A stretch of DNA of 41,458 nucleotides, from UHGV virus genome UHGV-0205600; one strand, given 5' to 3'. The notes below the pieces were generated by a model. The model was not told where the DNA came from. It saw only the letters and a list, made by a program, of their open reading frames with translations, and ran no database searches. Below, piece by piece: positions 16,120 to 19,555 of this stretch. How positions within the stretch are numbered: position 1 is the first letter of the stretch; each line of letters opens with the position of its first letter. Position numbers and translations under genes: made by a program. This stretch comes from a virus.

Positions 16120-17166
16120 ATGTCAGCGATTGATCAACCTGCGCAATATGTTATCAAGTCAGAAGACGACTTTGTATCTTTTGTAACAGAAATGCTCGGA
16201 AGGAAGGATATCGACTCAAGCGACTTCACATTCCCTAACGTAGTTTTCAGTGGATGGCCAAAGATCAATATTAATGTAAAAGGCGATCCAAATAGATATA
16301 ATTCTTCATTGACTGCGTCAATGCTTTTTGGTATGGCAGAGCTTACGCATGAAATACAAAAAGCATTTACGGTAGTCAGTCACAGCACTCATAATCGGCA
16401 GAAGCTAAAAGATGCAGAGAAAGGTTTGCTGGATATTGTCTACCGAATAAGCGAAGGCTCAAGCCAAGCGGATGGTGACTCAGATCCGATTGTAAACGGA
16501 GTGGTGACAGTGTTTACTCAAGCGATAGGCAAAATGACAGGAAGGCAAGCACTATGCGCCGTCGCCGCTATCGTCTTAGCTGCCAGCACGGTAGGCTATA
16601 AGTGGATCAATGAGTACTACGAAACACAGCGACATGACCAAGATTCTCAGGTGCAATTGGTGGAAAAAAGCACCAAAGCGGTAAACGAAGCACAAGACAA
16701 TGTGCTCAAGTTGTTGATTAGCGGTCAAACAAACATTAGCAGAGAGGTTCTGGCTCACGGCGAGGATGGTAAAAGCAAGTTGCTTAAAAAGCTTGCTCAA
16801 GACTCGTCAGTTGAGAGGGTAACAATTGGTCAGAGAGTGGTAAATAGAGAACAGTTGAATACCTTAAACCAAAGACAATCAATTGATCGAAAAAAGGAAA
16901 CTAGAAGAGATAACTTTTATGTCACGGGCGTTCGTCGCTCGGGAGAAACAAATCAGGACATAAATATTGACGTCATAAGGGTTTCAAATGGTGAATCTTT
17001 CACCATAAAAACCTCAGCCGACATAACATCTACTGATGAGCTTCTTGAGTTTTTGAATGCTGTAGCCAAAGAATCAACTGTTGAAATTTCATACCTAGAG
17101 GTTGTAGAAAATGGGCACATTTCAACAGGGCAATTGATAAATATATTCCCCAGCGAACCAGAGTGA
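16120..17166 (+). CDS. hypothetical 348-aa protein in the rexAB slot, co-transcribed with cI
   Basis: Starts 25 nt after cI stop with an AGGA-type RBS; predicted central hydrophobic helix (ALCAVAAIVLAASTVGYKWI); followed by a rho-independent terminator then PL/nutL/N; does not resemble recalled lambda RexA or RexB. Confidence 0.7.
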   Translation: MSAIDQPAQYVIKSEDDFVSFVTEMLGRKDIDSSDFTFPNVVFSGWPKININVKGDPNRYNSSLTASMLFGMAELTHEIQKAFTVVSHSTHNRQKLKDAEKGLLDIVYRISEGSSQADGDSDPIVNGVVTVFTQAIGKMTGRQALCAVAAIVLAASTVGYKWINEYYETQRHDQDSQVQLVEKSTKAVNEAQDNVLKLLISGQTNISREVLAHGEDGKSKLLKKLAQDSSVERVTIGQRVVNREQLNTLNQRQSIDRKKETRRDNFYVTGVRRSGETNQDINIDVIRVSNGESFTIKTSADITSTDELLEFLNAVAKESTVEISYLEVVENGHISTGQLINIFPSEPE

Positions 17167-17175
17167 TGCACTCCA

Positions 17176-17207
17176 AACCCGGCCTCAGCGCCGGGTTTTC
17201 TTTTTCC
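17176..17207 (+). terminator. rho-independent terminator ending the cI operon (tImm-like)
   Basis: Stem aacccggc / gccgggtt with 6-nt loop followed by a T-run (ttttcttttt). Confidence 0.7.
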
Positions 17208-17270
17208 AAAATATAAACCCATTAAATACAAAGCGTTATAAAAAACTAATTATATTTAGAACATTTTGTA

Positions 17271-17299
17271 TTGACTCGATAAAGTACAAATCGTACTAT
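17271..17299 (+). promoter_or_regulatory. putative PL promoter
   Basis: -35 ttgact, 17-nt spacer, -10 tactat upstream of nutL and N; flanking repeated TACAAA/TTTGTA motifs may be operator half-sites. Confidence 0.5.
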
Positions 17300-17340
17300 T
17301 TAGCCATCAGCAGGACGCACTGACCACCATTGAAGGTGAG

Positions 17341-17370
17341 GCTCTTAAAAATTTAGCCCTGAAGAAGGGC
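17341..17370 (+). promoter_or_regulatory. nutL (boxA plus boxB hairpin)
   Basis: boxA-like gctcttaaa followed by boxB gccctgaagaagggc, matching the recalled lambda nut boxB hairpin. Confidence 0.75.
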
Positions 17371-17480
17371 AGCATTCAAAGCAGAAGGCTTTGAGTAGCG
17401 CGAAATGCAGCTGCAAGACAGCAACCGTGGAGATAAGCATCACGGCGCGTTACTCAAAGCTAACTGACAGGAGAATCCAG

Positions 17481-17813
17481 ATGGATGCACAAGCACGCCG
17501 CCGCGAACGTCGCGCAGAGAAACAGGCTCAATGGAAAGCAGCAAATCCCCTGTTGGTTGGGGTAAGCGCAAAACCAGTTAACCGCCCTATTCTCTCGCTG
17601 AATCGCAAACCGAAATCACGAGTAGAAAGCGCACTGAATCCGATAGACCTTACGGTGCTGGCTGAATACCACGAACAGATTGAAAGCAACCTGCAACGTA
17701 TTGAGCGCAAGAATCAGCGCACATGGTACAGCAAGCCACGCTGTGAAATGGGTGTGACTTGCTCAGGCCGCCAGAAGCAACGCGGAAAATCAATTCCAGC
17801 TTATTACGATTGA
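17481..17813 (+). CDS. N: antiterminator N
   Basis: MDAQARRRERRAEKQAQWKAANPLLVGVSAKPVNRPILSLNRKPKSRVESALNPIDLTVLAEYH... matches recalled lambda N, including the arginine-rich motif. Confidence 0.9.
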   Translation: MDAQARRRERRAEKQAQWKAANPLLVGVSAKPVNRPILSLNRKPKSRVESALNPIDLTVLAEYHEQIESNLQRIERKNQRTWYSKPRCEMGVTCSGRQKQRGKSIPAYYD

Positions 17814-17821
17814 GGTGAGCC

Positions 17822-17959
17822 ATGCTCAAGAAAGTCAAACGCCGACTTTACAAAGAAGGTAGATATTCATGCCAGTTGCCAAAATGCGACACAACAAAAT
17901 GGAGTGTCGATGATTGGTGTAACTGGATAGATAGATACGGAACTTGGTGGGATAAATAA
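17822..17959 (+). CDS. small Cys-rich hypothetical protein (45 aa)
   Basis: Hand-translated: MLKKVKRRLYKEGRYSCQLPKCDTTKWSVDDWCNWIDRYGTWWDK; strong SD (gaggtg) 5 nt upstream of the ATG. Confidence 0.35.
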   Translation: MLKKVKRRLYKEGRYSCQLPKCDTTKWSVDDWCNWIDRYGTWWDK

Positions 17960-18013
17960 CAGGTAACTTAAGCGTATTTACTTTCGCAGCAAACAACTTA
18001 TTTGAGGTGATAT

Positions 18014-18100
18014 ATGGAAGAAGAATTTGAAGAGTTCGAAGAGCATCCTCAGGATGTGATGGAACAATACCAGGACTATCCGTATGACTACGACTATTGA
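18014..18100 (+). CDS. small acidic peptide (28 aa)
   Basis: Hand-translated: MEEEFEEFEEHPQDVMEQYQDYPYDYDY; strong SD (gaggtg); overlaps the ral start. Confidence 0.3.
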   Translation: MEEEFEEFEEHPQDVMEQYQDYPYDYDY

Positions 18101-18263
18101 TAAAAATCAATGGTGTGGACAATTCAAGCGATGCAATGGATGCAAGCTGCAATCGGAATGCATGGTTAAGCCTGAAGAAATGTTTCCTGTAATGGAAGAT
18201 GGGAAATATGTCGATAAATGGGCAATACGAACGACGGCAATGATTGCCAGAGAACTTGGTTAA
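18084..18263 (+). CDS. ral: Ral restriction-alleviation protein
   Basis: Hand-translated 59-aa ORF MTTTIDKNQWCGQFKRCNGCKLQSECMVKPEEMFPVMEDGKYVDKWAIRTTAMIARELG matches recalled lambda Ral. Confidence 0.8.
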   Translation: MTTTIDKNQWCGQFKRCNGCKLQSECMVKPEEMFPVMEDGKYVDKWAIRTTAMIARELG

Positions 18264-18418
18264 CAGAACAACAAAGCTGCCTGATAGTGGCCTTTATTTT
18301 TGGCATAAATAACAGAATAAACACTGCACTGTGTATTCATTCCAACGAGTGAATACACGGAGCAATGTCGCTCGTAACTAAACAGGAGCCGACTTGTTCT
18401 GATTATTGGAAATCTTCT

Positions 18419-18447
18419 TCGCCCTCCAGTGTGAGGGCGATTTTTTA
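18419..18447 (+). terminator. rho-independent terminator (tL-type) upstream of the 122-aa ORF
   Basis: Stem tcgccctc / gagggcga with 6-nt loop followed by tttttt. Confidence 0.65.
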
Positions 18448-18466
18448 TCTATGAGGATATGAATAG

Positions 18467-18835
18467 ATGTCAAACATCAAAAAATACATCATTGATTACG
18501 ACTGGAAAGCATCAATAGAAATTGAAATCGACCATGACGTAATGACAGAGGAAAAACTTCACCAGATTAATAATTTCTGGTCAGACTCTGAATACCGACT
18601 CAATAAACACGGCTCTGTATTAAATGCTGTATTAATCATGCTGGCGCAACATGCTCTGCTTATAGCAATTTCAAGCGACTTAAATGCATATGGTGTTGTG
18701 TGTGAGTTCGACTGGAATGATGGAAATGGTCAGGAAGGATGGCCTCCAATGGATGGTAGCGAAGGAATAAGAATTACCGATATCGATACATCAGGAATAT
18801 TTGATTCAGATGATATGACTATCAAAGCCGCTTGA
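18467..18835 (+). CDS. hypothetical 122-aa acidic protein in the sieB slot
   Basis: ORF with RBS (gagga) 8 nt upstream; between ral and cIII; acidic C-terminus (DIDTSGIFDSDDMTIKAA); no recognised motif. Confidence 0.6.
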   Translation: MSNIKKYIIDYDWKASIEIEIDHDVMTEEKLHQINNFWSDSEYRLNKHGSVLNAVLIMLAQHALLIAISSDLNAYGVVCEFDWNDGNGQEGWPPMDGSEGIRITDIDTSGIFDSDDMTIKAA

Positions 18836-18907
18836 GCGCGGCGTTACCGCATACCAATAACGCTTCACTCGAGGCGTTTTTCGTTATGTATAAATAAGGA
18901 GCACACC

Positions 18908-19072
18908 ATGCAATATGCCATTGCAGGGTGGCCTGTTGCTGGCTGCCCTTCCGAATCTTTACTTGAACGAATCACCCGTAAATTACGTGACGGATGGAAA
19001 CGCCTTATCGACATACTTAATCAGCCAGGAGTCCCAAAAAATGGATCAAACACTTATGGCTATCCAGACTAA
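18908..19072 (+). CDS. cIII: CIII (FtsH inhibitor)
   Basis: Hand-translated 54-aa [57 protein letters not shown] matches recalled lambda CIII. Confidence 0.85.
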   Translation: MQYAIAGWPVAGCPSESLLERITRKLRDGWKRLIDILNQPGVPKNGSNTYGYPD

Positions 19073-19184
19073 ATTCACTATCGCCACTTTTATTGGCGAT
19101 GAAAAGATGTTTCGTGAGGCCGTCGACGCTTATAAAAAATGGATATTAATACTGAAACTGAGATCAAGCAAAAGCATTCACTAA
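19041..19184 (+). CDS. kil: Kil (host cell-division inhibitor)
   Basis: Internal start [47 protein letters not shown] (47 aa) matches recalled lambda Kil; overlaps the cIII end and gam start. Confidence 0.8.
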
Positions 19185-19555
19185 CCCCCTTTCCTGTTTT
19201 CCTAATCAGCCCGGCATTTCGCGGGCGATATTTTCACAGCTATTTCAGGAGTTCAGCCATGAACGCTTATTACATTCAGGATCGTCTTGAGGCTCAGAGC
19301 TGGACGCGTCACTACCAGCAGATCGCCCGTGAAGAGAAAGAGGCAGAACTGGCAGACGACATGGAAAAAGGCCTGCCCCAGCACCTGTTTGAATCGCTAT
19401 GCATCGATCATTTGCAACGCCACGGGGCCAGCAAAAAAGCCATTACCCGTGCGTTTGATGACGATGTTGAGTTTCAGGAGCGCATGGCAGAACACATCCG
19501 GTACATGGTTGAAACCATTGCTCACCACCAGGTTGATATTGATTCAGAGGTATAA
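19139..19555 (+). CDS. gam: Gam (RecBCD inhibitor)
   Basis: 138-aa ORF matching recalled lambda Gam, including the internal MNAYYIQ start of the short form. Confidence 0.9.

What the first reader, a model, noticed from the sequence alone, without database searches (positions are those of the whole stretch)
18331..18358. Stable stem-loop without a T-run in the ral to sieB-slot spacer
gtgtattca-(10 nt)-tgaatacac forms a perfect 9-bp stem about 60 nt upstream of the tL-type terminator. Lacking a U-tract, it is not a simple terminator. It could be an RNase III processing site, a protein-binding site, or part of a small RNA in the PL transcript.
Basis: seen in the sequence. Interest (0 to 1): 0.25.

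Follow-up and report, generated by a model that had tools for sequence, protein, structure and literature searches.

The report
Conserved hairpin flanking phage sRNA PreS
The stem-loop is real and sits one base upstream of the start of PreS, a recently published lambda small RNA that boosts phage DNA replication; it is kept as a base-paired structure in five unrelated sequence versions, so it most likely marks where PreS is cut out of the long early-left transcript.

Summary
A perfect 9-bp stem lies at 18331-18339/18350-18358. As RNA it extends to 14 bp with a CAAC loop (-21.8 kcal/mol, z -7.4).

The label is partly wrong. The spacer is ral to ea10, the window has no sieB, and the terminator 60 nt downstream is lambda tL2a.

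The 88 nt after the hairpin (18360-18447) are the published Hfq-dependent lambda sRNA PreS/LPR1 (Silverman et al., bioRxiv 2024; Mol Cell 2025). The authors' primers start PreS at GAGCAATG, which is window 18360, one base after the stem. Their full deletion leaves the hairpin intact. The preprint never mentions the hairpin.

I anchored only on the PreS 5' core and examined 235 phage and prophage loci. 234 carry a hairpin at this exact place, in five sequence-unrelated classes. Eight consecutive pairs covary, a U.G wobble is invariant, and the PL-strand RNA is always the more stable strand. The one exception is HK022, where IS903 sits in the loop.

Best reading: a precursor hairpin of the PreS cassette that defines the 5' processing site. 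RNase III is the leading candidate nuclease, untested. After the cut the hairpin may cap the upstream mRNA.

The locus is known; the hairpin's role is a modest new lead.

The parts
18084..18263 (+). ral (restriction alleviation), 59 aa. It is shortened by a TAA where lambda has AAA. This is the gene upstream of the spacer.
   Evidence: ORF list. phrog_1055 'restriction alleviation ral', E 2e-45, profile positions 1-59 of 66. 99% DNA identity to lambda-like phages.
18326..18329 (+). Conserved non-coding GC(A/G)C at the 5' foot of the hairpin. G18326 and C18327 can pair with PreS +4 and +3. C18329 pairs with PreS +1.
   Evidence: In alignment A3, pair 13-50 is G-C in 28/29 sequences, pair 14-49 is C-G in 28/29, and pair 16-47 is C-G in 29/29. 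The motif is present in all five hairpin classes.
18329..18360 (+). Hairpin P0: a 14-bp RNA stem (18329-18342 with 18347-18360) and loop CAAC (18343-18346).
   Evidence: -21.8 kcal/mol, z -7.4. RNAalifold predicts it independently. Covariation is shown. Five sequence classes occur at the same position in 234 of 235 loci.
18360..18447 (+). PreS (LPR1) sRNA, 88 nt. It is identical to lambda except C18420 (lambda has T).
   Evidence: The authors' cloning and T7 primers begin GAGCAATGTCGCTCGTAACT and end ...GAGGGCGATTTTTTA (Table S5). The preprint places it 'between ea10 and ral', gives the 3' end as tL2a, and reports ~88 and ~68 nt bands.
18360..18373 (+). P1: a small 5' hairpin of mature PreS (GAGC / GCTC). 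It competes with the outer pairs of P0.
   Evidence: RNAalifold consensus, pairs 47-60 to 50-57. These pairs are invariant, so there is no covariation evidence for or against them.
18381..18398 (+). P2: a PreS internal hairpin (AACAGG / CTTGTT).
   Evidence: Pair 71-84 is A-U in 19 sequences and G-C in 10. Pair 72-83 is G.U, A-U or G-C.
18395..18411 (+). Published PreS seed region. The M1 mutation is at 18399-18401, M2 at 18409-18411, and the seed deletion lies between 18394 and 18412.
   Evidence: Primers P838/839, P888/889 and P970/971 in Table S5, mapped onto the window sequence.
18419..18446 (+). tL2a intrinsic terminator (8-bp stem, then TTTTTT). It forms the PreS 3' end and the Hfq-binding tail.
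   Evidence: It is annotated tL2A in the Sf6 and HK620 records. The preprint equates the LPR1 3' end with tL2a.
18467..18835 (+). ea10, the gene downstream of the spacer.
   Evidence: ORF list. phrog_646, E 4e-71. Annotated Ea10 in matching phage records.

Best explanation
The stem-loop is an RNA structure in the PL (early-left) transcript. It forms the 5' flank of the PreS sRNA cassette, which runs: stop codon, GC(A/G)C, hairpin P0, PreS, tL2a.

Shown here:
- It lies one base upstream of the published PreS +1.
- It travels with PreS behind many unrelated upstream genes.
- It is conserved as a structure, not as a sequence.
- Its pairing is better in the PL-strand RNA than in the opposite strand.

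Inferred:
- PreS is not a primary transcript. It is cut out of the PL transcript.
- The hairpin sets the position of the cut that creates the PreS 5' end. In the precursor fold, G+1 and +3/+4 are paired with the invariant upstream C and GC. The cut therefore falls at the base of a roughly 17-position helix, about 13 bp from the loop. That geometry suits RNase III, possibly cutting one strand only next to the A x A mismatch.
- After the cut, the PreS 5' GAGC refolds into P1. If only the 3' arm is cut, the hairpin stays on the upstream fragment as a 3' cap against exonucleases.
- The hairpin also insulates PreS folding from whatever gene recombination places upstream.

My probabilities: an RNA structural element belonging to the PreS cassette, about 0.9. 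It determines 5'-end formation, about 0.55. The enzyme is RNase III, about 0.3.
For: Position. PreS primers start at window 18360, and the full-deletion homology arm ends at 18359, leaving the hairpin intact. The reported 88-nt size equals 18360-18447.

Cassette linkage. I anchored on the PreS core only. 234 of 235 loci have a hairpin ending 0-2 nt before +1. The five classes are A GTGTATTCATT, B TATAGCAGATT, C TAATGACCATT, D TAATGCGGA and E TTATCGACTTTC. Class A follows at least 20 unrelated upstream contexts and class B at least 7. Both occur with lambda-type and with P22-type PreS bodies.

Covariation. 94.6% of cells are paired against 82.1% in shuffles (0 of 500 shuffles reach the observed value). 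Slid controls give 29-48%. Eight consecutive pairs change on both sides in 5-8 of 29 distinct sequences. RNAalifold finds the same helix unprompted. Class B has a compensatory A-U to U-A variant in 4 loci.

RNA and strand. U27.G36 is a wobble in 28 of 29 sequences. The + strand fold is more stable than the - strand fold in all six hairpin sequences folded, covering classes A-D, by 0.7 to 8.9 kcal/mol.

Chance. Only 1.85% of random 42-nt windows from the same loci fold at -14.9 kcal/mol or better.

Not a promoter. No sigma-70-like site is placed for a start at 18360, and the would-be -10 region differs between classes. PreS is made only in the lytic cycle, from 10 min after induction, like PL transcripts.

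RNase III fit for the lambda class. The two positions between the putative staggered cuts would be U.G and G-C, matching the in vivo rule of paired positions with at least one G-C.
Against: - No RNA-end or nuclease data for this site were available to me. The +1 comes from the authors' constructs and approximate northern sizes, with no 5' mapping described in the preprint.
- The conserved helix has only about 17 positions, with one or two mismatches. That is short for RNase III.
- In classes B to E, the two positions 5' of the cut are a C x U mismatch and a U.G pair, which fits the in vivo RNase III rule poorly.
- The outer pairs (GC with +3/+4, C with +1) never vary, so they carry no covariation evidence. 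The RNAalifold consensus instead puts +1 at the first base of P1, one unpaired base after P0.
- A double-strand RNase III cut would remove the hairpin from the upstream mRNA. The 'processing' and '3' cap' roles are compatible only if one strand is cut.
- The sequences are related and recombining, so shuffle statistics overstate independence.
- The published Mol Cell version was not readable and may already explain biogenesis differently.
Confidence: 0.55

Rival explanations
1. The hairpin's main job is to stabilise the 3' end of the upstream message. Some other endonuclease, such as RNase E, cuts in the single-stranded 5' part of PreS. The hairpin then blocks 3'-to-5' exonucleases and prolongs the life of ral or whatever gene lies upstream. 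The PreS 5' end is a by-product rather than being directed by the hairpin.
For: - In most contexts the hairpin begins about 4 nt after the stop codon of the upstream ORF (…GAATAA-GCAC-stem).
- It is a stable stem without a U-tract, the typical form of intercistronic stabilisers (established knowledge, e.g. REP elements and T7 RNase III products).
- The RNAalifold consensus leaves +1 outside P0.
- The 88-to-68-nt step falls in an AU-rich single strand (GUAACUAAAC), as RNase E prefers.
Against: - The hairpin tracks PreS, not the upstream gene. Each class follows many unrelated upstream contexts, and none of the 235 PreS loci lacks the hairpin except the IS-disrupted one.
- The sequence around the cut (CACG|GAGCAAU) does not resemble the RN|WUU RNase E preference (from memory of Chao et al. 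2017, not tested here).
- The invariant non-coding GC upstream of the stem is unexplained by a pure 3' cap.
Confidence: 0.2
2. It is a DNA-level feature: part of a 'boundary sequence' (bsq4) that serves as a homologous-recombination joint or cruciform hot spot for module exchange among lambdoid phages. On this view it has no RNA function of its own.
For: - The Sf6 record annotates GCAC + hairpin + PreS up to the terminator stem as 'bsq4; boundary sequence'. HK542 has 'boundary sequence 4'.
- BLAST homology breakpoints cluster at the hairpin edges, at query positions equal to window 18326, 18337 and 18360.
- Hairpin classes reassort with PreS body types and with flanking genes.
- IS903 inserted in the loop in HK022.
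Against: - A recombination joint needs sequence identity, not pairing. Here five unrelated sequences keep the same pairing register.
- Wobble pairs (T.G) are kept on the PL strand only, and the opposite strand folds worse in every hairpin sequence folded.
- The downstream part of bsq4 is now known to be a functional sRNA. That explains its conservation without a recombination role.
Confidence: 0.1
3. It is an operator-like DNA palindrome bound by a dimeric phage or host protein. Alternatively, it is part of a dedicated PreS promoter.
For: The 9-bp arms are separated by 10 bp, which is a plausible dimer site. A dedicated promoter would explain why PreS ends at tL2a despite N antitermination (inference).
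Against: - No promoter-like hexamers are placed for a start at 18360, and the total count of promoter-like sites is at the shuffle level.
- The arm sequences differ completely between classes, yet class A occurs in phages with different immunity regions and different neighbours: lambda, HK97, 933W, Sf6 and HK620.
- The symmetry is broken at conserved T.G positions.
- PreS is absent in lysogens and appears with PL transcription.
Confidence: 0.05
4. It is a chance palindrome with no function.
For: Perfect 9-bp hairpins are expected about 1.75 times per shuffled window.
Against: Structure is conserved with compensatory changes in 234 of 235 loci and five classes. The element is present in 2236 of 5426 complete E. 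coli genomes.
Confidence: 0.01

Closest known systems
PreS (LPR1), the Hfq-dependent sRNA of phage lambda (Silverman, Nashef, ... Melamed; bioRxiv 10.1101/2024.10.31.621285; Mol Cell 85:4678, 2025)
   Same: It occupies the same locus and strand. The window 18360-18447 matches the authors' LPR1 primers at both ends. It lies between ral and ea10, ends at tL2a, and carries the same seed.
   Different: The hairpin lies just outside the mature RNA, ending one base before +1. The preprint text does not mention it: 0 hits for 'hairpin' or 'stem-loop', and no TSS or nuclease is given for LPR1. Its full-deletion mutant retains the hairpin.
Boundary sequence bsq4 of lambdoid phages (annotation in the Sf6 and HK542 records; concept from Clark et al. 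2001 and Casjens et al. 2004, cited from memory)
   Same: Sf6 bsq4 (L002 2237-2349) is GCAC + this hairpin + PreS up to the terminator stem.
   Different: bsq4 was described as a conserved DNA joint between modules. The evidence here points to an RNA structure plus an sRNA as the reason for its conservation.
RNase III processing hairpins in phage polycistronic RNAs (T7 R1.1-type sites; lambda sib and the N-leader sites)
   Same: It is an intercistronic stem-loop without a U-tract in an early phage transcript. The putative cut is at the helix base next to a 1x1 internal loop. The lambda class meets the 'two paired positions with a G-C between the cuts' rule.
   Different: The conserved helix is shorter, about 17 positions. 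Classes B to E have a mismatch at the putative cut. No cleavage data exist. The product downstream is an Hfq sRNA rather than an mRNA.
3'UTR-derived (type II) sRNAs released from mRNAs by endonucleolytic cleavage, such as CpxQ, and DicF from the Qin prophage dicB operon
   Same: The sRNA shares the terminator of an upstream coding transcript and is released by processing. A further shortening to a 68-nt form occurs.
   Different: Those examples are generally RNase E products cut in single-stranded AU-rich sites (from memory). Here a covarying hairpin abuts the 5' end.

Membership tests
PreS/LPR1 sRNA (downstream element) | Sequence identity to published LPR1 from +1 (GAGCAATGTCGCTCGTAACT) to the 3' end (…GAGGGCGATTTTTTA) | tested here: met
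   The window 18360-18447 matches the primers in Table S5. It differs from lambda by one base, C18420.
PreS/LPR1 sRNA (downstream element) | Location between ral and ea10 on the PL strand, with the 3' end at tL2a | tested here: met
PreS/LPR1 sRNA (downstream element) | Hfq binding and regulation of dnaN and alaS | not testable with these tools
   The seed region is identical to lambda. Function is taken from the paper only.
PreS/LPR1 sRNA (the hairpin itself as part of the mature RNA) | Lies within the 88-nt or 68-nt species | tested here: not met
   The 9-bp core ends at 18358 and +1 is 18360. The extended stem does pair with +1 (G18360), so the overlap with the mature RNA is that single base. 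Northern sizes are ~88 and ~68 nt.
Intrinsic (Rho-independent) terminator | G+C-rich stem followed directly by a U-tract | tested here: not met
   The stem is A+U-rich and is followed by GGAGCAAT. The terminator scan does not report it.
RNase III substrate | dsRNA of about two helical turns | tested here: inconclusive
   The lambda class can form 22 positions at 82% complementarity. The helix conserved across classes has about 17 positions with 1-2 mismatches.
RNase III substrate | Two paired positions, with at least one G-C, between cuts staggered by 2 nt (in vivo rule, PMC6212723) | tested here: inconclusive
   Met in class A (U.G and G-C). Not met in classes B to E (C x U or similar mismatch, plus U.G) if the cut is at the same place.
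RNase III substrate | rnc-dependent cleavage in vivo or in vitro | not testable with these tools
   No data found.
Sigma-70 promoter for PreS | -35 and -10 hexamers placed for a start at 18360 and conserved among homologues | tested here: not met
   The only promoter-like site is at 18260-18288, and the count is at chance level. The -12 to -7 region differs in every class.
Boundary sequence bsq4 | Coincides with the annotated bsq4 of Sf6 | tested here: met
   L002 2237-2349 runs from GCACTGTG… to …GAGGGC.
Any Rfam family | Covariance-model match | tested here: not met
   Only sub-threshold chance hits overlap 18306-18446: rliE at 20 bits and RyhB at 19 bits. PreS is not in Rfam 15.

The most novel reading that the evidence does not exclude
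The hairpin is a portable, exchangeable processing signal. Every lambdoid phage uses it to release PreS from the N-antiterminated PL transcript. RNase III makes a single-strand cut at its base, which creates the PreS 5' end and also leaves a 3' cap on the upstream message. The five discrete stem classes set different processing efficiencies or timing. This would give PreS a dedicated biogenesis element, comparable in logic to sib retroregulation.
Probability: 0.25. Interest if true: 0.5.

Novelty: new member of a known kind. Interest (0 to 1): 0.35.

Why it matters
PreS is among the first phage sRNAs shown to reprogram an essential host function: it up-regulates dnaN translation. How it is made from an antiterminated operon transcript is not stated in the text I could read.

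A covarying hairpin abuts its 5' end in 234 of 235 loci examined. The hairpin+PreS unit occurs in 41% of complete E. coli genomes (2236 of 5426). This gives a concrete, testable candidate for the biogenesis signal.

It also gives an RNA-level reason for the conservation of a 'boundary sequence' (bsq4) that was noted two decades ago. For annotation, it shows that the published full deletion of lpr1 leaves this element in place.

Tried and rejected
- Rfam scan of 17300-19200 at E <= 10. Nothing was found for the hairpin or PreS; only the cIII thermoregulator passed.
- Known EHEC and EPEC prophage sRNAs. AgvB, AsxR, PasA-D, StxS and HnrS are encoded in the late region, the structural region or elsewhere, not here.
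- Promoter hypothesis. Rejected on the scan and on the lack of conserved hexamers across classes.
- Terminator on the minus strand. There is no adjacent T-run.
- Literature searches for tL2, tL2a and RNase III sites in the pL operon. Nothing usable was returned. The classic papers (Luk & Szybalski 1983; Hyman & Honigman 1986) are not in the library.
- My single genome-contig scan used a 16-base pattern that was too loose. It was filled mostly by chance matches in unrelated bacteria, and only a few Escherichia-type hits were usable.
- The Mol Cell version of the PreS paper could not be read.
- Table S3/S5 and the supplementary figures of the preprint contain no 5'-end or nuclease data for LPR1.

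Full report
**Observation.** As RNA the helix grows to 14 bp (18329-18342 with 18347-18360). It has two G.U pairs and a CAAC tetraloop, plus three outer pairs beyond an A x A mismatch. The energy is -21.8 kcal/mol, z = -7.4 against dinucleotide shuffles. The repeat finder extends it to 22 positions at 82% complementarity. No T-run follows, and the terminator scan does not call it. A perfect 9-bp hairpin is not rare on its own: the window has 8 such loci, and shuffles give 1.75 +/- 1.7 register-level hits. The sequence alone therefore does not prove significance.

**Context.** The PL operon lies on the + strand.
- A PL-like promoter is at 17271-17299, and nutL boxB is at 17357-17371.
- N is at 17478-17813, followed by a 45-aa ORF and an orf28 homologue.
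- ral is at 18084-18263, then the 203-nt spacer, then ea10 (18467-18835), cIII, kil, gam, bet and exo.
- The terminator 60 nt downstream (18419-18446) is lambda tL2a, as annotated in Sf6 and HK620.

**What lies next to the hairpin.** The roughly 125-150 nt from the hairpin to the terminator are 94-100% identical in about 390 phage records that differ in their flanking genes. In Sf6 this stretch is annotated 'bsq4; boundary sequence'.

A literature search found that lambda encodes here the Hfq-dependent sRNA LPR1, renamed PreS. The preprint places it 'between ea10 and ral' with its 3' end at tL2a. It reports bands of about 88 nt and a processed form of about 68 nt. The RNA is made only in the lytic cycle, from 10 min after induction. 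It activates dnaN and represses alaS. The paper was later published in Mol Cell 85:4678, 2025.

The authors' cloning and T7 primers start LPR1 at GAGCAATGTCGCTCGTAACT, which is window 18360. They end it at ...GATTTTTTA, which is window 18447, giving 88 nt. The homology arm of their full deletion ends at ...TGAATACACG (18359), so that deletion keeps the hairpin.

The hairpin's perfect stem therefore ends one base before PreS +1. In the extended fold, G+1 itself pairs with C18329. The preprint text contains no occurrence of 'hairpin', 'stem-loop' or 'transcription start'. It names no promoter or nuclease for LPR1, and the supplements add nothing. The Mol Cell version could not be read.

**Is the hairpin conserved as a structure?** To avoid selecting on the hairpin, I collected loci by the PreS 5' core only (GAGCAATRTCGCTCGTAAC), from IMG/VR and from phage records.
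- Of 235 loci, 234 have a hairpin that ends 0-2 nt before +1.
- The hairpins fall into five classes whose central stems are unrelated in sequence: A CTGTGTATTCATTC/GAGTGAATACACG; B TATAGCAGATT/AGTCTGCTATG; C TAATGACCATT/AGTGGTCATTG; D TAATGCGGA/TTCCGCATTG; E TTATCGACTTTC/GAGAGTCGATAG.
- Class B has a compensatory variant (GCAG/CTGC to GCTG/CAGC) in 4 loci.
- The single exception is HK022. There IS903 sits in the hairpin loop, flanked by the 9-bp duplication TCATTCCAA.

On a MAFFT alignment of 29 distinct sequences, 94.6% of cells are paired. Shuffles give 82.1% (0 of 500 reach the observed value), and slid registers give 29-48%. Eight consecutive stem pairs change on both sides in 5-8 sequences, with almost no broken cells. 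RNAalifold, given no structure, predicts the same helix. It also predicts PreS hairpins P1 (invariant) and P2 (covarying). Random 42-nt windows from the same loci reach -14.9 kcal/mol in only 1.85% of cases.

**RNA or DNA, and which strand?** A U.G wobble next to the loop is kept in 28 of 29 sequences, and a second wobble sits at the stem base. These would be C.A mismatches in the opposite strand. In all six hairpin sequences folded (classes A-D), the PL-strand RNA folds better than the complementary strand, by 0.7 to 8.9 kcal/mol. Together with the + strand terminator, this points to an RNA element of the PL transcript.

**To what is it linked?** Class A follows at least 20 unrelated upstream contexts, and class B at least 7. 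Both combine with lambda-type and with P22-type PreS bodies. The conserved unit starts at about (C)GAATAA-GC(A/G)C, and its TAA often serves as the stop codon of whatever gene lies upstream. The hairpin therefore belongs to the PreS cassette, not to ral or any other upstream gene.

**Mechanism.** There is no sigma-70-like promoter placed for a start at 18360. The would-be -10 region lies in the variable arm. PreS follows PL kinetics. PreS is therefore most likely cut out of the PL transcript.

The invariant features around the cut are C(-31):G(+1) and the non-coding upstream GC facing +3/+4. They suggest a precursor helix in which the cut lies at the base of the stem, about 13 bp from the loop and beside a 1x1 internal loop.

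This geometry suits RNase III. The lambda class also satisfies the in vivo rule of two paired positions with a G-C between the staggered cuts. Three points weigh against RNase III:
- The conserved helix has only about 17 positions.
- Classes B to E have a mismatch at that place.
- The outer pairs never vary.

The RNAalifold consensus instead puts +1 at the first base of P1, one unpaired base after P0.

I therefore commit to 'precursor hairpin that defines the PreS 5' processing site' at about 0.55, with RNase III as the enzyme at about 0.3. The main rival, at 0.2, is a pure 3'-end stabiliser of the upstream mRNA. A DNA recombination joint (0.1), an operator or promoter (0.05) and chance (0.01) are less likely, for the reasons given under the rivals.

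**Comparison and novelty.** The locus is known as PreS, tL2a and bsq4. The hairpin is not part of mature PreS as published, and it is not discussed in the text I could read. It is best filed as a new example of a known kind of element: a processing or stabiliser hairpin flanking an sRNA in a polycistronic phage transcript. The hairpin+PreS unit is present, and unannotated, in 2236 of 5426 complete E. coli genomes.

The finding is a modest lead for PreS biogenesis. It also supplies an RNA-level explanation for an old 'boundary sequence'. It is not a surprise for specialists.

Noticed in passing
window 18261-18284: ral ends at a TAA where lambda has AAA, giving 59 aa instead of 66. The next 21 nt still read QNNKAA-stop in frame, so this is a recent nonsense change at the C-terminus.
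   Followed up: partly
window 17814-18100: There is no sieB between N and ral. Instead there is a 45-aa ORF (17822-17959, phrog_1871, like Sf6 gene 36). There is also an acidic 28-aa homologue of lambda orf28 (18014-18100), with its own Shine-Dalgarno sequence, overlapping the ral start.
   Followed up: partly
window 18420: The only difference from lambda within PreS is C instead of T at the foot of the tL2a stem. It turns a U.G pair into C-G and should strengthen the terminator.
   Followed up: no
L006 (HK022) 100-160 and 1190-1225: IS903 is inserted in the loop of the hairpin, with a 9-bp target duplication TCATTCCAA. The two arms are about 1 kb apart. This is a natural test case for whether the hairpin is needed for PreS.
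   Followed up: partly
window 18895-18953: An Rfam Lambda_thermo (cIII thermoregulator) match at 88.5 bits, in front of and overlapping the cIII start.
   Followed up: no
window 16120-17300: A 348-aa ORF of unknown function (phrog_6191) lies on the PL strand. It ends in a clean intrinsic terminator (17175-17198 plus a T-run) just upstream of a PL-like promoter (TTGACT-17-TACTAT, 17271-17299). The operators do not look lambda-type, while nutL boxB (17357-17371) is lambda-like. The immunity region therefore appears to be a hybrid.
   Followed up: no
window 18276-18300: A weak terminator-like hairpin (GCTGCC…GGC) followed by CTTTATTTTT, directly after the lambda-type ral stop. It is not conserved outside lambda-type contexts.
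   Followed up: no
loci L005, L013, L025, L026, L090 and others (P22-type PreS bodies): Salmonella/P22-like phages carry a diverged PreS body with a longer 3' part and a different terminator. The 5' core and GTTCTG(G/A)TTA are kept, and P2 is kept by compensatory changes (AACAGG/CTTGTT versus AACGAG/CTCGTT). The published conservation analysis used at least 92% identity and would have missed these.
   Followed up: partly
E. coli genome collection: The hairpin+PreS unit occurs in 2236 of 5426 complete E. coli genomes, with up to 6 copies per genome and 20 places on plasmids. None of the 8 rows listed shows an annotated feature under the match.
   Followed up: no
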